15,366 nucleotides of DNA, from NCBI RefSeq assembly GCF_003334315.1, contig NZ_QOWR01000075.1, one strand, 5' to 3'. How positions within the stretch are numbered: position 1 is the first letter of the stretch; every line of letters starts with the position of its first letter. Below are positions 1-5,242 of this stretch, in pieces. The translations under genes were made by a program, and so were the position numbers. A model generated the notes under the pieces. It was given only the letters and a program-made list of their open reading frames with translations, was not told where the DNA came from and did no database searches. The DNA is from Escherichia coli (lineage in GTDB: Bacteria > Pseudomonadota > Gammaproteobacteria > Enterobacterales > Enterobacteriaceae).

Positions 1-105
1 ATTATATCGAATGTGATTACAATCGGTGGCGGCGGCACAGTTGGTGTGGCGGCCTCAGTCCGGAACAATTTGAAAACAAGAACCTCGCTTAGGCCTGTGT
101 CCATA

Positions 106-459
106 TTACGTGGGTAGGATCAGATCAGGAACAGCTTTAACAGTAGCTTCTTGTTGTGTCTTGGCTTCTTGTCTAGCTTCTTCTTGTGGAATATCTACCA
201 CTTGATAGACATTAGAACTTCCTGGTCGTGCATCTTTTATAATTAACCCCATTTCGAGCAATTTCTTAACCCTTTCCTCTGCTGCTCTTGGTGTTATGCC
301 AAAAACATCGCCTATCTTAGCGTAAGAGGGAAATGCACGATCAAACCCTTTCAGATAGCAGTAAAGATTTTTAGCACTATCTGTAAATTTATGCCCGTTT
401 ACTTGGCTTATTTTTAGAATCCACATAGGAACTTTTACAAATTGTTCTTCATTAATCAT
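106..459 (-). CDS. small winged-helix/HTH DNA-binding protein, 117 aa from ATG 459 (the ORF track shows a GTG-extended 125 aa form reaching 483)
   Basis: Open frame 106..483. The ATG at 457-459 is preceded by AAGGAG (467-472) 7 nt upstream, while the GTG at 483 has no SD. The pattern VPMWILK..AKNLYCYLKGF..FPSYAKIGDVFGITPRAAEERVKKLLEMGLI resembles the HTH_36 / initiator-type winged helix of phage and plasmid proteins (from memory, not searched). The tail is acidic and Q-rich. Confidence 0.6.
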   Translation of the reverse strand: MINEEQFVKVPMWILKISQVNGHKFTDSAKNLYCYLKGFDRAFPSYAKIGDVFGITPRAAEERVKKLLEMGLIIKDARPGSSNVYQVVDIPQEEARQEAKTQQEATVKAVPDLILPT

Positions 460-512
460 TAAAAATCTCCTTGATGTAATCACGCTCTATGGCGCTACTA
501 TGGTGATAAAAA

Positions 513-683
513 TCACTTGCTTTTATTTGAGAGTGTTTCAGCCTCTCTTTTCAACATATCAAGAATGTAATCTGTGACAGTGATACGTCTACTTCTGGCT
601 TCTTTAAATAACACCTGAAATACTTCATCAGGAATATGAAAGCAAGTGCGTGGTTGTCTTTTCTTTTCTGTAGTTTCGCTCAT
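513..683 (-). CDS. 56 aa ribbon-helix-helix-like (Arc/CopG/MetJ style) protein, MSETTEKKRQPRTCFHIPDEVFQVLFKEARSRRITVTDYILDMLKREAETLSNKSK
   Basis: Not in the ORF track because it is under 60 aa; I translated it by hand. ATG at 681-683, TGA at 513-515, AAGGAG at 690-695 (6 nt spacer). The basic N-terminus followed by beta-strand-like FHIPDEVF and then two helices is the RHH layout. It lies between two other same-strand genes with short gaps (19 nt to the upstream gene, 53 nt to the downstream one). Confidence 0.55.
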   Translation of the reverse strand: MSETTEKKRQPRTCFHIPDEVFQVLFKEARSRRITVTDYILDMLKREAETLSNKSK

Positions 684-702
684 AGTTTTCTCCTTCTATT
701 CT

Positions 703-891
703 TTACTCTGTTTCAGATTCTTTTTCATTTTTTCTTAATTCATCAATAATCTTGAGTGCTTCATTGAAGCAAGCTGCTCGCTCTGGATAACCTCGACTCC
801 TTGCCATATTACGATTCATTACTATTTGGTGGCGTGTAAGCTCACCTTTTTTAAATGCCGCGACAACGTGTTCCGATGTGAACCATTTCAT
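703..891 (-). CDS. 62 aa hypothetical protein, first gene of the three-gene operon
   Basis: ATG at 889-891 with AAGGAG at 898-903 (6 nt spacer); TAA at 703-705. I recognise no family. The C-terminus is helical and charged. Confidence 0.55.
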   Translation of the reverse strand: MKWFTSEHVVAAFKKGELTRHQIVMNRNMARSRGYPERAACFNEALKIIDELRKNEKESETE

Positions 892-1001
892 AAAAAACTC
901 CTTATTCAGTTAAAAGAAAAACACCTTGCAAGCCTGACGGCTTCAAAGTGCATTGATTTTGATTATTTAGAGAAGAATGTTTTTCTGTCCCTCTAATACC
1001 T

Positions 1002-1030
1002 ATTATTACATATAAAGAAACATTTGTCAA
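1002..1030 (-). promoter_or_regulatory. sigma70-like promoter for the 891->106 operon
   Basis: On the minus strand: TTGACA (1030..1025), 17 nt spacer, AATAAT (1007..1002). This predicts a leader of about 100 nt before the ATG at 891. Confidence 0.45.
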
Positions 1031-1122
1031 TACCTTTTCACAAAAAATCTGATCTTTTTCATGTACTTACATTTTTTCTTAGCAATTCGTGCTCTTCTGT
1101 GTAGTGCTATTCTTCCTTATTG

Positions 1123-1151
1123 TCTAAAACGCTCTAAAACGCGTTCTAACG
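1123..1151 (+). repeat. tandem 10-mer TCTAAAACGC x2 plus a degenerate third copy
   Basis: Perfect copies at 1123-1132 and 1133-1142, with a partial copy TCTAACG at 1145-1151. The related AAAACGCTCT recurs at 1287-1296. Confidence 0.6.
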
Positions 1152-1567
1152 AGGTTTTGATAAAAGCAATACATTCCCTTATGTAATGGCTGTTTAGCTC
1201 GCCAGAGGCTTATTTAAGGGGCTTATTTTGTATTTGTTAGGTATATGAAAAGGTGATGGTAGATATAAGATAGAGAGTCACTTTATAAAACGCTCTGTAA
1301 AGCCCTGTAGTGAGTTTATATATGTAGGCAATGCGTTTCCATTCCCTACCCTGCTTAATGCTGTTAGAGAAGCATTTAGACCCCTTATTTTTAATTACCT
1401 AAAGTATCCTCTATACATTCCTGTTATGAAACACCTCTGAATCCTTCATAAAACACATTATGACGCAAAGAACACTTTTCTAAGGTGATTCCCTTCCTGA
1501 ATGCTGTTTCTTGCGTCAAAGAGCTACACAGAGCTTATAAAGCTATTATTAATAATAAAGTAGACAA

Positions 1568-1620
1568 AGTAAGTAAGATAAGTAAGTAAGATAACTAAGA
1601 TAGATAAGATTAATAAGATC
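1568..1620 (+). repeat. TAAG/TAAGAT microsatellite-like tract
   Basis: Perfect 13 bp tandem AGTAAGTAAGATA at 1568-1580 and 1581-1593. TAAGAT hexamers start at 1574, 1587, 1596, 1605 and 1614 (spacing 13, 9, 9, 9 bp). Confidence 0.75.
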
Positions 1621-1629
1621 AGAATTCTC

Positions 1630-1661
1630 TTTCGGTGTCGCCTCTGGCTTTTCCACCGAAA
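1630..1661. other. 8 bp stem hairpin / dyad (TTTCGGTG ... CACCGAAA, 16 nt loop)
   Basis: Arms at 1630-1637 and 1654-1661 are perfectly complementary. There is no U-tract on either strand, so it is not called a terminator. Confidence 0.4.
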
Positions 1662-1663
1662 AC

Positions 1664-1828
1664 AATTACACAACTACAGAGAATAACGAGAGTTATTAAA
1701 TGTAGAAAGTGGAATTGTATTGAGGCTTAGTGAAATTACACGAGGAAAGCAGAGTGTAATTGAGCTTTAGCCGCTCTCTCTTCGAGTAATTACACAACTA
1801 CAGAGAATAACAGAGTTATTAAATGTAG
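1664..1828 (+). repeat. pair of 42/41 bp direct repeats (1664-1705 and 1788-1828) bracketing an AATTACAC/GTGTAATT inverted pair
   Basis: Both copies read AATTACACAACTACAGAGAATAAC(G)AGAGTTATTAAATGTAG and are identical except for a 1 nt indel. Each contains the dyad AATAAC-N3/4-GTTATT. Between them, AATTACAC (1734-1741) and GTGTAATT (1754-1761) form a perfect 8 bp inverted repeat. Confidence 0.9.
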
Positions 1829-1889
1829 GAGGGTAATTAAGAGTTAGAGAGAGTTAACACATAAGCAATCAGTATGATTGGTTAGGTGA

Positions 1890-2070
1890 TTACTCTTCTG
1901 CGCACAGCGCAATAGTATTTCTTCGTGGGCGTTACCGCCAACGATAGTTACACGAAGAAAGTAACGCTTTGCTTTCGGTGTGAGCGGAACGGGCCAGCCA
2001 CGAAGCCCAAAGGTAGCGGAGTAAGGCTGCTTGCCAGAGAGTGAAGCTAACGCCGGAAGGCAAAAGATCA
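1890..2070. ncRNA. candidate structured RNA (or gene relic): a GC-richer, hairpin-dense patch inside very AT-rich DNA
   Basis: Perfect 10 bp helix TTTCTTCGTG (1918-1927) / CACGAAGAAA (1951-1960), enclosing GGCG-TTAC-CGCC (1928-1939). An alternative pairing is GCGTTAC (1929-1935) with GTAACGC (1961-1967). Other hairpins: TGCGC-ACA-GCGCA (1899-1911), GGGC/GCCC (1991-1994/2005-2008) and TTGCC/GGCAA (2031-2035/2059-2063). The overlapping 75 aa minus-strand ORF has no SD. Strand is undetermined. Confidence 0.3.
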
Positions 2071-2128
2071 TATAAATAAATATATAATATTATAATTTAA
2101 TAAGTAATTTAATAAATGATCTAATAGG

Positions 2129-2262
2129 TAACAGAATTCTGTGGGGGTGTCTAACAGTTTTCTGTGGGGGTGTCTAACAGAATTCTGTTAGGGTGGGGTA
2201 ACAGAATTTTGTTAGGGTAAAAATCTCTTTAAAAGTTAAGATTAACAGAATTCTGTGGGGGG
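2129..2262 (+). repeat. array of 5 dyad sites TAACAG-N4-CTGT(TA), each followed by a G-run
   Basis: Copies at 2129-2147, 2152-2170, 2175-2198, 2199-2218 and 2243-2262 (start spacing 23, 23, 24, 44 bp). The core ACAGAATTCTGT is a perfect 12 bp palindrome, and the copy at 2175 is a perfect 16 bp palindrome, TAACAGAATTCTGTTA. Confidence 0.9.
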
Positions 2263-2325
2263 TAGCTCACAGTGACCTACCCCCTAGTTCACTATGACCT
2301 ACCCCCCTAGGTCACAGTGACCTAT
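2263..2325 (+). repeat. iteron triplet A (22, 23, 18 bp units: TAGCTCACAGTGACCTACCCCC / TAGTTCACTATGACCTACCCCCC / TAGGTCACAGTGACCTAT)
   Basis: Head-to-tail direct repeats at 2263-2284, 2285-2307 and 2308-2325. The preceding G-run and the first unit form the inverted repeat GGGGGTAG ... CTACCCCC. Confidence 0.9.
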
Positions 2326-2383
2326 ATAGTATAAAGAATATTATTTATATTATTTAATTATAGTATTTAATTATAGTATTGGT
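2326..2383. repeat. extremely AT-rich spacer with a perfect 13 bp tandem TATTTAATTATAG x2 (2351-2363, 2364-2376); DUE-like
   Basis: Read directly from the sequence. It is flanked by the iteron and dyad arrays. A second AT-rich tract (2072-2128) carries the 11-mer TAATTTAATAA twice (2093-2103, 2105-2115). Confidence 0.7.
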
Positions 2384-2483
2384 GGAACTCATTTCCTAGG
2401 TAGGTAGGAACTAATTTCCTAAGTAGGTAGGAAACCACTTCCTAGGTTACTTCCTAAATAGATCGGAAATCATTTCCTAGGTG
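2384..2483 (+). repeat. array of 4 dyad sites GGAA-N5-TTCC followed by TAGGT/TAAGT
   Basis: Sites at 2384-2396, 2407-2419, 2430-2442 and 2465-2477 (start spacing 23, 23, 35 bp). There is a lone TTCCTA half-site at 2451-2456. Confidence 0.9.
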
Positions 2484-2501
2484 TTATTTATACTTATCGG
2501 G

Positions 2502-2556
2502 TATCAGTTTTGATAGGGGTATCAGACTTGATAGGGGTAACAGAATTCTGTGGGGG
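2502..2556 (+). repeat. array of 3 dyad-plus-GGGG units (TATCAGTTTTGATAGGGG, TATCAGACTTGATAGGGG, TAACAGAATTCTGTGGGGG)
   Basis: Units at 2502-2519, 2520-2537 and 2538-2556, with an 18 bp period. The TATCA..TGATA arms differ from the TAACAG..CTGTTA arms by symmetric (compensatory) changes in both half-sites. Confidence 0.9.
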
Positions 2557-2619
2557 TAGTTCACTATGACCTACCCCTAGTTCACTGTGAGCTACCCCTA
2601 GTTCACTGTGAGCTACCGT
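2557..2619 (+). repeat. iteron triplet B (3 x 21 bp TAGTTCAC(T/A)(G/A)TGA(G/C)CTACCCC)
   Basis: Units at 2557-2577, 2578-2598 and 2599-2619. They have the same orientation and family as 2263-2325. The module [TAACAGAATTCTGT + G-run + 3 iterons] is therefore duplicated (2243-2325 and 2538-2619). Confidence 0.9.
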
Positions 2620-2711
2620 TACATCCAATCATCTGTCGATGTAACATATCGTTACTACCAACTTTCTTACAAAGAGCATTTCAGATAGCTGAATGTAACC
2701 TCTCGTTACAT
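2618..2711. repeat. four GTTACAT heptamers arranged as two dyads
   Basis: GTTACATC (2618-2625) / GATGTAAC (2638-2645) with a 12 bp spacer. ATGTAAC (2693-2699) / GTTACAT (2705-2711) with a 5 bp spacer. There is an extra CGTTAC at 2650-2655. Confidence 0.8.
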
Positions 2712-2732
2712 CCATTTGTCACATAGCACTCT

Positions 2733-3208
2733 GTGTAATGCCTTTCTATGTGTGTGCCATAATCCCCCTATATTCCCTGTGTAAATCATAGAATAATGCT
2801 CTCTATTCCCTGTGTAATTCCCTACTAAAAATCAATGAAAAAGTAGCTTAAAGTTGCAATTCTTACTTTCTTCACTTTTACATCACTTTCGCAAAGCCTT
2901 GTGTAATGCGGCTTACAGAGCACCATCAGAAATTGTTGGCTAAAAATTATTCTGCTTGTTTCTGAACGAGTTTTCTCGTTTGTGCAAATTTTAAAATTTA
3001 TTTTGTTTTTACAGCCTTATTTCGTGTAATGCGTGGCATAGCAAGCCCTTTTCTTGTGTTGTCAAGACATTTGGCAACGTTCAAACATCTGTTTAGAAAT
3101 GCCAAATTGTTGATCTAACAAATAAACCTGTATAAACAGAACACCATTTAATCTATTCCCCTGTGTATCCATTAGGCATACCAAATGAATACAGCTAAAT
3201 CGTGTAAT
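2733..3208 (+). repeat. field of GTGTAAT-containing motifs, including the perfect 14-mer TATTCCCTGTGTAA x2
   Basis: GTGTAATGC at 2733, 2901 and 3024; GTGTAAT at 3202. TATTCCCTGTGTAA at 2771-2784 and 2804-2817 (33 bp apart). Variant TATTCCCCTGTGTA at 3154-3167. Related ATTCCCTTATGTAAT near 1173-1187. CCCTGTGTA on the minus strand at 4604-4612. Confidence 0.8.
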
Positions 3209-3281
3209 ATTCCGTACCCATAAGGCTTGAAACAGACCAAATGAATACGGTATACTCATTTGCATTTAAGTAGTGCCAAAT
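3069..3281. promoter_or_regulatory. res-like recombinase-binding region (CCAAAT-containing half-sites) upstream of the serine recombinase gene
   Basis: CCAAATGAATAC at 3181-3192 and 3237-3248. An imperfect inverted partner GTATACTCATTTG lies at 3250-3262. TGCCAAAT is at 3100-3107 and 3274-3281, with its complement ATTTGGCA at 3069-3076. The arrangement resembles the multi-subsite res regions next to tnpR-type genes (established layout; the assignment here is inference). Confidence 0.4.
3227..3256 (+). promoter_or_regulatory. sigma70-like promoter of the recombinase gene, overlapped by the repeated half-sites
   Basis: TTGAAA (3227-3232), 18 nt spacer, TATACT (3251-3256). The CCAAATGAATAC repeat lies within the spacer, which suggests autoregulation. 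Confidence 0.45.
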
Positions 3282-3301
3282 CGACACATTAAGAGGATTT
3301 T

Positions 3302-3841
3302 ATGAGCAATATCGGTTATAAGCGTGTGAGCACTGTAGATCAGAACACTGATCGCCAGCTTGCAGGAGTAACTCTCGATAAAGTCTTTGAAGATAAGCTG
3401 TCTGGTAAAGACACTAACCGCCCAGGCTTACAAGCGTGTTTAGCCTATCTGAGAGAAGGCGACACCTTACACGTGCACTCTCTCGACCGTTTAGGACGTA
3501 ACACCTTAGACATCCTTGCTTTAGTTGAACAACTTAATAATCGAGGTGTAATTGTTCGATTTCACAAAGAAGGAATCATTGCAGACATTACAAGCGCGAT
3601 GGGAAAGATGATGCTTACGATGTTGTCGGCAGTTGCAACGTGTGAACGTGAACTGATGTTAGAACGTAAACGAGAAGCGCAAGCCGTCAATCCTACAAAA
3701 CGTGGTAATGGAAAAGCAGTGGATCGAGAAGGTATAAAGAAAGCCCTTTCTGATGGCCTGTCAGTGCGTAAAACCGCCGAGAGCTTTAATGTTGCTCCTT
3801 CAACGGTGCAACGTATCAAGAAGGAAGAAGAGGAGGCGTAA
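3302..3841 (+). CDS. small serine recombinase (resolvase/invertase family), 179 aa
   Basis: N-terminal GYKRVSTVDQNTDRQ carries the catalytic-serine motif (YxRVSTxxQ). DRLGRN and the SAVATCERE helix are present. C-terminal HTH: GLSVRKTAESFNVAPSTVQRIKK. RBS AAGAGGA at 3291-3297. Confidence 0.9.
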   Translation: MSNIGYKRVSTVDQNTDRQLAGVTLDKVFEDKLSGKDTNRPGLQACLAYLREGDTLHVHSLDRLGRNTLDILALVEQLNNRGVIVRFHKEGIIADITSAMGKMMLTMLSAVATCERELMLERKREAQAVNPTKRGNGKAVDREGIKKALSDGLSVRKTAESFNVAPSTVQRIKKEEEEA

Positions 3842-3849
3842 TGCCTCCT
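3831..3849 (+). terminator. hairpin at the recombinase stop codon (AGGAGGC-GTAAT-GCCTCCT)
   Basis: Perfect 7 bp stem overlapping the TAA, followed by TTGATATTTG, which is only a weak U-tract. Confidence 0.4.
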
Positions 3850-4058
3850 TGATATTTGAGAATTGTCGCTGCGTGGACCTGACGGCGCTGATCTTCTCGT
3901 TAAGCGATGATCACGTATGCGCCGATTTCAGAGAAAAAGACAGTAACTGAACTCACTATGAAGGCTAAACGTATCTTTACACTTGATGAAAACGTTCAAA
4001 AAACAACCTAACCCCAAAATTCAACAAATTGCAACACATTGTTTTTAAAAGAAAATTA

Positions 4059-4106
4059 AATCTACATCAAATATTGGTTGACGTAGATTGAGGTGAATAG
4101 TAGACT
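4059..4106 (+). promoter_or_regulatory. sigma70-like promoter with a flanking 7 bp inverted repeat, upstream of the 52 aa ORF
   Basis: TTGACG (4078-4083), 17 nt spacer, TAGACT (4101-4106). AATCTAC (4059-4065) / GTAGATT (4083-4089) brackets the -35. Confidence 0.4.
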
Positions 4107-4182
4107 ATTAGGGTAAATTACCACCCTTGTAACATCATTTAATGCATGTTCTAATCTTCCTATCGTAAAACCGGAGGAAGTT

Positions 4183-4341
4183 ATGCATTTACTTTCAAAA
4201 CATCTTCACACTATTCACTTTCTCGTTATTGATGTATTCGTTGTGGCTATTAGTTACCGCATTTGCATCGCTTCCAGTGAAGAGATGGACGCTGTTGCAA
4301 TTATTGCTCAAGCAATGGCGATATTAACTAAACGACTTTAA
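4183..4341 (+). CDS. 52 aa hydrophobic mini-protein, MHLLSKHLHTIHFLVIDVFVVAISYRICIASSEEMDAVAIIAQAMAILTKRL
   Basis: Translated by hand (below the track cut-off). GGAGG at 4173-4177, 5 nt before the ATG at 4183; TAA at 4339-4341. It has a promoter upstream and a hairpin downstream. The hydrophobic core suggests a membrane peptide. Confidence 0.4.
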   Translation: MHLLSKHLHTIHFLVIDVFVVAISYRICIASSEEMDAVAIIAQAMAILTKRL

Positions 4342-4354
4342 TAATTTCACTATC

Positions 4355-4398
4355 AGGCGCATAAACACATCTTTGATCGCTGGATGTGTTATGCGCCT
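4355..4398. terminator. long hairpin between the convergent mini-ORFs (16 bp stem with one bulge, 11 nt loop)
   Basis: AGGCGCATAAACACATC (4355-4371) pairs with GATGTGTTATGCGCCT (4383-4398). There is no clear U-tract on either strand, so the terminator role is inferred only from its position between the two stop codons (4341 and 4408). Confidence 0.45.
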
Positions 4399-4407
4399 AC
4401 TGGTGAT

Positions 4408-4560
4408 TCAATCCTTAAGCCATTTCAACTCACTAAGGAGTTTTCTTTCTTCGTTCTCTCGTTGCTTTCGCTCTAGCCAGGCTTTTCCCTCTGGCGTAGA
4501 CAGGAACTTACGAGCGTGAATCTTGCGGTTATTACGTTTTATAGCTGCAATGTTTTTCAT
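4408..4560 (-). CDS. 50 aa basic, coiled-coil-like mini-protein, MKNIAAIKRNNRKIHARKFLSTPEGKAWLERKQRENEERKLLSELKWLKD
   Basis: Translated by hand. ATG at 4558-4560, AGAGG at 4568-4572 (7 nt spacer), TGA at 4408-4410. A CCCTGTGTA motif lies about 45 nt upstream, on the same strand. Confidence 0.4.
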   Translation of the reverse strand: MKNIAAIKRNNRKIHARKFLSTPEGKAWLERKQRENEERKLLSELKWLKD

Positions 4561-4744
4561 CGTGTTGCCTCTGTATTCATATGAAAATTAACAAGTTACA
4601 TACTACACAGGGAGACTACGCATAAAACACAATACAAGTAAAGATACATTTTCAAGACAATAGGAGCCATAAAGCGCCTTTGATGGTTATACCAAAAAAT
4701 AAGCGCCGTAGGCGTATCCACTAAAAAGGGCTTTTTCACAAAAG

Positions 4745-5110
4745 CTATGAAGTCTTAGCAGTTCTTCTCTTATCAGGCACCCGTTGTACTCCGGTGGACG
4801 AAACCGTGCTAGAGCTTGATTCTTTCCCGATCAAGTTAGGTTTTGAAGAGGTGGGCTTTAATCCACTATTGCACTTAAAACTCTTCCCATCATTTAGCCT
4901 GTTTATCCTCTGCAACGTCTCACGACGTGTAGCATCATTGGACACCGCGCCAGGTGTGGAACATCTTGCTAAGAGTTTTGGTAGAAGGTTTAGAGACGGT
5001 GGCACGTCTTCCAGCTTCAAAGGAACTTGTTACGAGGTTGAGCCTGGGAACTACTCGCCCATACGTGTTACACTACCAAAGCCCATAACAACGTATAGGC
5101 GTTTGTAAGT
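4745..5110. ncRNA. candidate structured RNA or decayed gene adjacent to the thrW 3' end
   Basis: GC is close to the core genome, unlike its neighbours. Both strands carry long overlapping open frames (4745..5020 minus, 4794..5108 plus) with non-ATG starts and no SD. Many local hairpins: 4813-4837, GAAGAG/CTCTTC 4845-4886 enclosing GTGG/CCAC, ACGTC-TCAC-GACGT 4915-4928, ACACC/GGTGT 4942-4957, AGACG/CGTCT 4994-5009. On the minus strand, a short GC stem plus T6 at about 4695-4725 could terminate a leftward transcript. Confidence 0.3.
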
Positions 5111-5166
5111 GATAACAGAAGATACAATTTCTTAGAGAAGTTAAGCTAAGTTATTGATTTTCTTGA

Positions 5167-5242
5167 TGGTGCCGATAATAGGAGTCGAACCTACGACCTT
5201 CGCATTACGAATGCGCTGCTCTACCAACTGAGCTATATCGGC
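5167..5242 (-). tRNA. thrW: tRNA-Thr (anticodon CGU)
   Basis: The reverse complement reads GCCGATATAGCTCAGTTGGTAGAGCAGCGCATTCGTAATGCGAAGGTCGTAGGTTCGACTCCTATTATCGGCACCA. It is 76 nt with an encoded CCA, a CGT anticodon in the loop and a GGTTCGA T-arm. Confidence 0.97.

What the first reader, a model, noticed from the sequence alone, without database searches (positions are those of the whole stretch)
1172..4612. Dispersed operator-like motif ATTCCCTGTGTAA linking separate modules of the island
The perfect 14-mer TATTCCCTGTGTAA occurs at 2771 and 2804, exactly 33 bp apart. A one-base variant lies at 3154, just upstream of the recombinase promoter and res-like region. A related ATTCCCTTATGTAAT lies at about 1173, upstream of the divergent region next to the small-gene operon promoter. 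CCCTGTGTA occurs on the minus strand at 4604-4612, about 45 nt upstream of the 50 aa ORF and on its coding strand.

A 14-mer recurring by chance in 5 kb is unlikely (expected about 0.05 by my rough estimate). The distribution suggests one regulator coordinating the operon, the recombinase and the mini-ORF.
Basis: seen in the sequence. Interest (0 to 1): 0.5.

Follow-up and report, generated by a model that had tools for sequence, protein, structure and literature searches.

The report
Recombinase-site arm repeated near satellite origin
The repeated word is real, but it is most likely one arm of the DNA sites bound by the island's own resolvase-type recombinase, plus a looser GTGTAAT word around the replication origin, and not a master operator tying three promoters together.

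Summary
The exact 14-mer TATTCCCTGTGTAA does occur at 2771 and 2804, 33 bp apart.

- The 3154 copy has an inserted C and a different last base.
- The 1173 copy varies at motif positions among near-identical relatives.
- The 4604 (minus strand) copy is a 9-10-mer.

The window is the right end of a ~12.6-kb phage-satellite-like island at thrW. It has a 2.4-kb non-coding origin region that is full of repeats. The word that is truly over-represented there is GTGTAAT: 9 copies against 0.4 expected.

The 3154 and 4604 copies are each one arm of a composite inverted-repeat site, CTGTGTA...CAWATGAATACAG.
- One site (3161-3194) opens a res-like block of six half-sites. This block overlaps the promoter of the serine recombinase gene.
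- The other site (4571-4613) lies on the opposite strand, directly upstream of the 50-aa ORF.

My best reading (confidence about 0.4) is that the motif is the outer, HTH-read arm of recombinase binding sites, and that 2771 and 2804 are orphan arms.

I tested and rejected several alternatives: DnaA boxes, sigma-70 promoters, helper-phage promoters, an RHH operator and an invertible segment. A single regulator linking the leftward operon is not supported.

Interest is modest. The surrounding satellite family appears undescribed and is more interesting than the motif.

The parts
2771..2784 (+). Exact copy 1 of TATTCCCTGTGTAA. Orphan arm, with no significant partner arm.
   Evidence: Present in 25 of 37 related loci and absent from the L003-type loci.
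2804..2817 (+). Exact copy 2 of the 14-mer. The TGTGTAATTCC core is invariant across the family, including the diverged L003 type. It also marks a recurrent mosaic junction at w2804.
3154..3194 (+). Variant copy TATTCCCCTGTGTAT (3154-3168), which forms the left arm of a 34-bp inverted-repeat site at 3161-3194: CTGTGTATCCATTAGG CATA CCAAATGAATACAG. Proposed crossover-type subsite I of a res-like region.
   Evidence: Homology with alternative cassettes ends at w3171-3174 in at least 7 loci, 3-6 bp from the centre of the site.
3201..3289 (+). Four more half-sites of the same family: 3201-3216 (+, holds GTGTAAT at 3202), 3237-3250 (-), 3249-3264 (+) and 3276-3289 (-). Proposed accessory subsites. 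They overlap the recombinase promoter (-35 at 3227-3232, -10 at 3251-3256).
   Evidence: Five of the 18 window-wide matches to CCAAATGAATAC (up to 3 mismatches) fall within 3165-3287.
3302..3841 (+). Small serine recombinase, 179 aa (resolvase/invertase family). Proposed binder of the motif.
   Evidence: Pfam Resolvase 7.5e-34. PHROG DNA invertase 1.3e-54. Gamma-delta and Tn3 resolvases are the best PDB matches, 4e-29.
4571..4613 (-). Second composite site, in inverted orientation: TCCCTGTGTA-N20-CATATGAATACAG. It abuts the Shine-Dalgarno sequence of the 50-aa ORF (ATG at 4560).
   Evidence: (left arm 10/10 and right arm 12/13 identical to the 3154-3194 site).
1173..1187 (+). ATTCCCTTATGTAAT, judged a chance resemblance.
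   Evidence: Varies at motif positions among close relatives. PWM score is only 9.3.
2733..3030 (+). Other same-orientation GTGTAAT boxes of the right cluster, at 2733, 2901 and 3024 (GTGTAATGC sub-type). The 2901 box sits in the loop of a short hairpin (AGCC/GGCT) that is kept in distant relatives with other loop sequences.
   Evidence: The 2901 box reads GTGTAGT or GTGTACT in 9 of 31 loci.
1664..1843 (.). Left cluster. ATTACAC at 1665, 1735 and 1789 paired with GTGTAAT-like arms at 1712, 1753 and 1835, giving three hairpin/palindrome units.
   Evidence: z = -6.2; pairing kept by compensatory changes in Citrobacter L031, where the word itself is not kept.
2129..2620 (.). Replication origin: iteron families A-D and P, with an AT-rich tract, lying between the two box clusters.

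Best explanation
The motif is the outer arm of the DNA sites bound by the island's own small serine recombinase (a gamma-delta/Tn3-resolvase relative). This is the part that the recombinase's helix-turn-helix domain would read.

Shown:
1. The 3154 copy is the left arm of a 34-bp inverted repeat (3161-3194). The right arm of this repeat, CCAAATGAATACAG, recurs four more times in alternating orientation over the next ~100 bp.
2. Together these give a ~130-bp block of six half-sites directly upstream of the recombinase gene. The block overlaps the gene's predicted promoter.
3. The 4604 copy is the matching arm of a second composite site with the same two ends, on the other strand, just upstream of the 50-aa ORF.
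4. Exchange of alternative cassettes in related islands repeatedly breaks within 3-6 bp of the centre of the 3161-3194 site.

Inferred:
1. The block is a res site used to resolve multimers of the replicating satellite circle and to autoregulate the recombinase.
2. Binding at 4571-4613 could also affect the 50-aa ORF.
3. The 2771 and 2804 copies and the looser YGTGTAAT boxes are orphan or low-affinity arms. They could be relics of past site duplications or cassette exchanges, or accessory landing sites.

The ATTACAC/GTGTAAT words left of the origin are arms of conserved hairpins and may be unrelated.
For: - The recombinase is a resolvase-family protein.
- Half-site matches cluster at 3165-3287: 5 of the 18 window-wide matches fall in 123 bp, where about 0.14 would be expected for that interval. 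The consensus CTGTGTATTCATTTGG is matched with 2 edits at 3161 and 3181 and with 3 edits at 4569.
- The sites overlap the predicted recombinase promoter, TTGAAA-18-TATACT.
- The 3154-3194 and 4571-4613 sites share both arms, 10/10 and 12/13.
- Cassette junctions fall at w3171-3174 in L012, L050, L051, L055, L058, L060 and L069, and at w2804 in the L003-type loci.
- The 63%-identical recombinase of L003 has its own upstream inverted repeats, which also start with GTGT: GTGTAGTGAT ... ATCACCACAC. Its recognition helix (TVQRIKK) is almost the same.
- Lineages with a tyrosine recombinase in the same position, or with no homologue of this serine recombinase (Enterobacter-type loci and Citrobacter L031), have no GTGTAAT arrays.
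- The known Tn3 res is a 114-bp block with three dimer sites. Motifs at the ends of each site are read by the C-terminal DNA-binding domain, and crossover happens at site I (10.1101/2021.12.07.471667).
Against: - The 2771, 2804, 2733, 2901 and 3024 boxes have no significant partner arm. The downstream-only comparisons give p = 0.2-0.4. The full 16-nt half-site does not recur outside the res-like block and the 4571 site.
- At least 9 related loci have lost the serine recombinase but keep every box. They are so close in sequence that this may simply be recent loss.
- L003-type loci keep the 4571-4613 site with window-type arms although their recombinase differs.
- Box spacing is irregular: 46, 33, 89 and 123 bp.
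- No binding data exist, and the promoter is only a consensus match.
Confidence: 0.4

Rival explanations
1. The boxes are operators for another conserved small DNA-binding protein of the island (for example the 62-aa first gene of the leftward operon) or for a helper-phage protein. That protein would control origin firing, transcription or induction.
For: - GTGTAAT is 20-fold enriched and flanks the origin on both sides.
- A box-like ATGTAAT overlaps the extended -10 of the leftward promoter.
- L003-type loci keep a tandem pair of boxes, 22 bp apart, in an otherwise non-homologous patch.
- The 62-aa protein is at least 89% conserved in all box-bearing loci and diverged (31-71%) in loci without boxes.
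Against: - The RHH protein is excluded as a simple candidate. It drops to 44-46% identity in L010 and L003 while the boxes stay the same. Enterobacter-type loci keep the RTC(F/L)HIP strand but have no boxes.
- No DNA-binding fold is detected for the 62-aa protein.
- The boxes do not overlap predicted promoters.
- The word is not enriched in 100 kb of the candidate helper phage ESCO37: 15 copies seen against about 20 expected.
Confidence: 0.2
2. There is no sequence-specific function. The copies would be products of local duplication and of mosaic recombination in a repeat-dense origin region, and they look conserved only because the family is young.
For: - The island holds 64 repeated 14-mers.
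- The copies fall into a few duplication families: the 41-nt repeat at 1664/1788, the 20-nt repeat at 2768/2801, and the GTGTAATGC trio.
- E. coli family members are about 95% identical across 2670-3300, so conservation there says little.
- The TATTCCC part, the 2901 box and the 1173 site all vary.
Against: - Five independent sequence families share the same heptamer, where 0.4 copies are expected.
- TGTGTAATTCC and CCTTGTGTAATGCGG survive in L003-type loci while their flanks are replaced.
- Both arms are shared between the 3161 and 4571 sites.
Confidence: 0.2
3. The words act in RNA or single-stranded DNA. GUGUAAU stretches right of the origin would pair with the AUUACAC hairpin arms left of it, as in the P4 CI-RNA seqA/B/C type of satellite control.
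For: - The 1640-1850 region folds far better than shuffles (z = -6.2) and shows compensatory changes in a Citrobacter relative.
- The 2901 box lies in a hairpin loop that is conserved with lineage-specific loop sequences.
- On the minus strand, five boxes are more accessible than the median position.
Against: - The 2720-2960 region is not structured on either strand: z = +0.9 and -1.7.
- Plus-strand accessibility of the boxes is unremarkable.
- No promoter is predicted that would transcribe the region.
- The complementarity is only 7-8 nt.
- No Rfam family matches.
Confidence: 0.1

Closest known systems
res sites of the Tn3/gamma-delta resolvase family
   Same: - The recombinase is a homologous small serine recombinase.
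- Several dimer sites, each built from inverted half-sites, are packed into about 130 bp directly upstream of the recombinase gene and overlap its promoter.
- The outer arm starts with TGT. I recall the Tn3-family consensus as TGTCYNNTA; this is from memory and was not tested.
- The proposed crossover site is the subsite farthest from the gene.
- General architecture as described in 10.1101/2021.12.07.471667.
   Different: - The subsite lengths (34, ~50 and ~40 bp) differ from the 28/34/25 bp that I recall for Tn3 (from memory).
- The element is not a transposon but a phage-satellite-like island.
- Extra orphan arms lie 350-430 bp upstream.
- A second composite site lies 1.4 kb away in inverted orientation.
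- Resolution activity is untested.
Hin/Gin-type invertible segments
   Same: A small serine recombinase (the best PHROG match is 'DNA invertase') lies between two inverted copies of a composite site, at 3161-3194 and 4571-4613.
   Different: A synthetic inverted-junction query found no inverted arrangement in any of 579 E. coli genomes that carry these sequences, nor in about 45 fetched loci. The sites are 34-43 bp with unequal spacers, not 26-bp hix/gix-like sites. No enhancer was looked for.
Plasmid multimer-resolution modules next to iteron origins (for example Sin/beta-type res with half-sites in direct repeat)
   Same: A resolvase gene with its site sits beside an iteron-type origin. Distant relatives carry a small tyrosine recombinase at the same position, which fits a resolution role. 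Half-sites in direct repeat have a precedent in Sin site II.
   Different: The direct repeats here are 33 bp apart, too far for one dimer. No IHF/HU site was identified.
Dispersed asymmetric operators such as P1 C1 or RK2 KorA/KorB
   Same: A short word recurs in several modules of a mobile element.
   Different: Those operators overlap promoters. Here most copies lie in DNA without a predicted promoter, and the copy near the operon is not conserved.

Membership tests
Tn3/gamma-delta-type res site | A cognate small serine recombinase (resolvase catalytic domain plus C-terminal HTH) is encoded next to the site. | tested here: met
   Pfam Resolvase 7.5e-34 plus HTH_7/HTH_38. Gamma-delta resolvase 4e-29 over residues 2-175.
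Tn3/gamma-delta-type res site | Three dimer-binding subsites, each made of two inverted half-sites, within about 115-130 bp. | tested here: inconclusive
   Six half-site-like sequences in alternating orientation lie at 3161-3289. Two are exact repeats of CCAAATGAATAC. The others have 2-5 edits, so the subsite borders are my own reading.
Tn3/gamma-delta-type res site | The site overlaps the recombinase promoter (autoregulation). | tested here: inconclusive
   The consensus promoter at 3227-3256 lies inside the block. This is a consensus match only, with no expression data.
Tn3/gamma-delta-type res site | Recombination between two directly repeated copies gives resolution, with crossover at the centre of subsite I. 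| not testable with these tools
   Indirect evidence only: natural cassette junctions cluster 3-6 bp from the centre of 3161-3194.
Invertible DNA switch (Hin/Gin/Pin/Cin) | Both orientations of the segment are found in populations or genomes. | tested here: not met
   0 of 579 genomes hold the inverted junction. All fetched loci are collinear.
   The 1173 copy is not conserved. The 2771/2804 copies are far from any predicted promoter. Only the 3154 and 4604 copies adjoin genes.
DnaA boxes at a plasmid-type origin | A cluster of TTWTNCACA matches next to the iterons or the AT-rich tract. | tested here: not met
   32 matches with up to 1 mismatch, against 33.9 expected. The boxes deviate consistently at position 2 of the DnaA consensus.

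The most novel reading that the evidence does not exclude
The YGTGTAAT boxes would be a dedicated cis-code that brackets a composite, multi-Rep origin in an undescribed family of satellites of virulent phi92/phAPEC8-like (Stephanstirmvirinae) phages. They would be read either by the resolvase acting in a second role as a replication or packaging regulator, or by an unknown conserved small protein. Such a code would couple origin firing, multimer resolution and expression of the small genes during helper infection.
Probability: 0.15. Interest if true: 0.7.

Novelty: new member of a known kind. Interest (0 to 1): 0.35.

Why it matters
- If the reading is right, the motif marks the multimer-resolution (res) module of a plasmid-like replicating phage satellite.
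- It would also explain why recombinase cassettes are swapped at one fixed point in hundreds of E. coli genomes.
- It gives a concrete set of sites (3161-3194, 4571-4613, 2771/2804) for footprinting.
- The wider value lies in the context. About 14% of complete E. coli genomes (762 of 5426) carry matching DNA from this island family.
- The family appears to parasitise virulent Stephanstirmvirinae phages, and its 2.4-kb control region is essentially uncharted.

Tried and rejected
1. DnaA boxes: no enrichment, 32 matches against 33.9 expected.
2. Sigma-70 promoter elements: TGTAAT lacks the critical A at position -11 (established knowledge). The region holds fewer promoter-like sites than shuffles do.
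3. Helper-phage promoter or other helper motif: GTGTAAT is not enriched in 100 kb of phapecoctavirus ESCO37, nor in 12 kb of Mt1B1_P17.
4. pac or cos site: no phage shares the 2660-3300 stretch. The only helper-like non-coding stretch is 3853-3932.
5. Operator of the 56-aa RHH protein: the protein varies while the boxes stay, and relatives with the same DNA-reading strand lack the boxes.
6. Rep-binding sites: the Rep N-domains and the iteron families vary among loci while the boxes stay constant.
7. Integrase arm sites: integrases differ (32-66% identity) between loci that have identical boxes.
8. Invertible segment: 0 of 579 genomes show the inverted junction.
9. Structured RNA across 2720-2960: z = +0.9 and -1.7. 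No Rfam match.
10. A full 34-bp site at 2808-2841: right-arm similarity is not significant, p = 0.22.
A viral-contig scan found none. The metagenome scan then supplied those loci.
12. Recalled matches to CRP, TyrR, GalR, CpxR, Tus/Ter, dif/cer, IHF and Fis consensus sequences were checked by eye and do not fit. These comparisons rest on memory only.

Full report
**Context**

The window starts in the 3' end of an IS3 element (1-123). It then runs through the right part of an island that ends at tRNA-Thr(CGT) thrW (5167-5242, minus strand), followed by proA and proB. IS3 truncates a gene whose product matches phage O-like replication initiators.

Intact relatives are about 12.6 kb. In order they carry:
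- a tyrosine integrase;
- a Dit-like tail protein;
- a tape-measure-like protein;
- a lambda-E-type major capsid protein;
- several small genes;
- Rep;
- a 56-aa ribbon-helix-helix-like protein;
- a 62-aa protein;
- about 2-2.4 kb of non-coding DNA;
- a 179-aa serine recombinase;
- one or two mini-ORFs.

762 of 5426 complete E. coli genomes hold matching DNA.

The non-coding stretch (892-3301) has three parts:
- a conserved left arm;
- a variable origin built from up to five iteron families with an AT-rich tract (2070-2620);
- a conserved right arm.

**The observation**

The exact 14-mer is at 2771 and 2804.
- The 3154 copy has an extra C and ends in T.
- The 1173 copy is a loose match.
- The 4604 copy, on the minus strand, is a 9-10-mer.

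The island holds 64 different 14-mers that occur twice or more, against 0.42 in shuffles. Repetition as such is the norm here.

The word that stands out once the iterons are set aside is GTGTAAT: 9 copies against 0.40 expected, reached in 0 of 300 shuffles.
- One cluster lies right of the origin, all in one orientation: 2733, 2779 (GTGTAAA), 2812, 2901, 3024, 3162 (TGTGTAT) and 3202.
- One cluster lies left of the origin, at 1665, 1735, 1754 and 1789.

A position weight matrix built from these boxes gives its high scores (14 or more) only in these two clusters, both in the window and in an intact island.

**Conservation**

Across 37 related loci TGTGTAAT at 2804 never changes, while the TATTCCC part does. 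The exact 14-mer is present twice in only 7 loci.
- The 2901 box is GTGTAGT or GTGTACT in 9 loci.
- The 1173 site alternates between ATGTAAT, ATCTAAT and ATGTAGA within otherwise near-identical flanks. I treat it as a chance match.

In the diverged L003-type loci the stretch 2745-2803 is replaced, but the boxes on either side remain. The replacement carries its own box-like ATGTAATTG, 22 bp before the conserved CCCTGTGTAATTCC.

More distant relatives lack the GTGTAAT arrays altogether. These are Citrobacter L031 and the Enterobacter-type loci L036-L049. They still share the gene order, the left-arm hairpin block, the iteron types and a palindrome at 3069-3105. None of them has a homologue of this serine recombinase, and the Enterobacter-type loci carry a small tyrosine recombinase in its place.

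**What the motif belongs to**

The 3154 copy is the left arm of a 34-bp inverted repeat: CTGTGTATCCATTAGG / CATA / CCAAATGAATACAG (3161-3194).

The right-arm word CCAAATGAATAC recurs exactly at 3237. Degenerate copies lie at 3165 (-), 3252 (-) and 3276 (+). So 5 of the 18 window-wide matches fall within 123 bp.

Read as half-sites of consensus CTGTGTATTCATTTGG, the stretch 3161-3289 holds six of them in alternating orientation. That is three inverted pairs, which overlap the predicted recombinase promoter TTGAAA-18-TATACT. This layout matches a resolvase res site. Tn3 res is 114 bp with three dimer sites, the end motifs of each site are read by the C-terminal DNA-binding domain, and crossover happens at site I (10.1101/2021.12.07.471667). 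The recombinase's best solved relatives are the gamma-delta and Tn3 resolvases.

The 4604 copy is the corresponding arm of a second composite site (4571-4613, minus strand): TCCCTGTGTA-N20-CATATGAATACAG. It shares 10/10 and 12/13 positions with the two arms of the first site. It ends at the Shine-Dalgarno sequence of the 50-aa ORF.

Natural variants support a recombination role. The recombinase module is polymorphic, with three states: this recombinase, a 63%-identical one, or none. In at least seven loci homology to the window stops at 3171-3174, which is 3-6 bp from the centre of the 3161-3194 site. L003-type homology starts exactly at 2804.

The 63%-identical recombinase has a nearly identical recognition helix. 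It has its own upstream inverted repeats, which also begin with GTGT.

**Limits of this reading**

- The 2771, 2804, 2733, 2901 and 3024 boxes have no statistically supported partner arm.
- The full half-site does not recur outside the res-like block and the 4571 site.
- Loci that have lost the recombinase keep all the boxes.
- The left-cluster words are arms of three hairpins in a block that folds far better than shuffles (z = -6.2). The pairing of this block is kept by compensatory changes in the Citrobacter relative, while the word is not. Those copies may have nothing to do with the recombinase.

I therefore give the recombinase-arm explanation a confidence of about 0.4.

**Alternatives tested**

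- DnaA boxes are not enriched.
- The word cannot serve as a sigma-70 -10 element, and the region is poor in promoter-like sites.
- The likely helper group is the Stephanstirmvirinae:
  - the Dit-like protein is 61% identical to phi92-type proteins;
  - the Rep N-domain is 91% identical at nucleotide level to a gene of phage Mt1B1_P17;
  - an 80-bp non-coding stretch matches the start of phapecoctavirus genomes.
- Even so, 100 kb of phage ESCO37 shows no enrichment of the word, so it is not a helper promoter motif.
- The RHH protein, the Rep N-domain and the integrase all vary between loci that have identical boxes.
- An invertible-switch reading of the two inverted composite sites failed. No genome among 579 holds the inverted junction.
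- The right arm is not a structured RNA, and box accessibility is unremarkable on the plus strand.

**Verdict**

The link to the leftward operon does not hold.

As a finding it is a new member of a known kind and of modest interest. The island family and its large control region deserve separate study.

Noticed in passing
window 1-5166; intact copy L002 5315-17897: The island looks like an undescribed phage satellite. It has an integrase, a Dit-like tail protein (61% aa identity to phi92/Justusliebigvirus proteins), a tape-measure-like protein, its own lambda-E-type capsid protein and an O-like Rep, but no terminase. Matching DNA is present in 762 of 5426 complete E. coli genomes. The elements sit at several tRNA sites (thrW, a tRNA-Leu, a tRNA-Gly) and at least one site with no tRNA found. 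No paper on satellites of Stephanstirmvirinae was found.
   Followed up: partly
window 3853-3932: A non-coding stretch just after the recombinase stop codon is 82.7% identical, with a 30-nt identical core, to nt 24-104 of phapecoctavirus genomes (an unannotated intergenic start region, seen in about 60 phages). This resembles the pac-site mimicry reported for PLE and ICP1.
   Followed up: partly
window 129-500 (truncated Rep gene): The Rep N-terminal winged-helix domain is 91-96% identical at nucleotide level to part of a 328-aa gene in phapecoctaviruses Mt1B1_P17 and BI-EHEC. Across satellites the Rep N-domains are highly diverged (four or more types) while the C-terminal half is conserved.
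   Followed up: partly
window 2070-2620: The origin is a mosaic of five iteron families: A TAACAGAATTCTG, B TAGTTCACTGTGAGCTA, C TTCCTAGGTAGG, D GGGTATCA-N-TTGATAGGGG and P TGTAAC-N5-GTTACA. In other loci single families go with single Rep N-domain types. This copy carries all five.
   Followed up: partly
window 1640-2066: A hairpin-rich block (z = -6.2) plus a GC-rich patch (1893-2066, present or absent among close relatives) is conserved in the Citrobacter and Enterobacter-type relatives, with compensatory changes. It has no ORF and no Rfam match. It could be a structured RNA or a single-strand DNA element next to the origin.
   Followed up: partly
window 3069-3114: The palindrome TTTGGCAACGTTCAAACATCTGTTTAGAAATGCCAAA is 84-89% conserved even in the distant Citrobacter and Enterobacter-type elements, whose surrounding sequence is unalignable. 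Its function is unknown.
   Followed up: no
window 2991-4655: The recombinase module is a swappable cassette with three states: recW, rec3 (63% identical) or no recombinase. Junctions recur at w2804, w2991-3004, w3171-3174, w3864/3902, w4410 and w4655.
   Followed up: partly
window 1-123 and 106-483: An IS3 insertion truncates the Rep gene to 125 codons, so this particular copy is probably unable to replicate autonomously.
   Followed up: partly
window 892-1900 compared with 703-891: Among the E. coli relatives aligned, the non-coding left arm shows few substitutions, whereas the adjacent 62-aa gene is only 82-96% identical. This suggests strong constraint or recent exchange of the non-coding DNA.
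   Followed up: no
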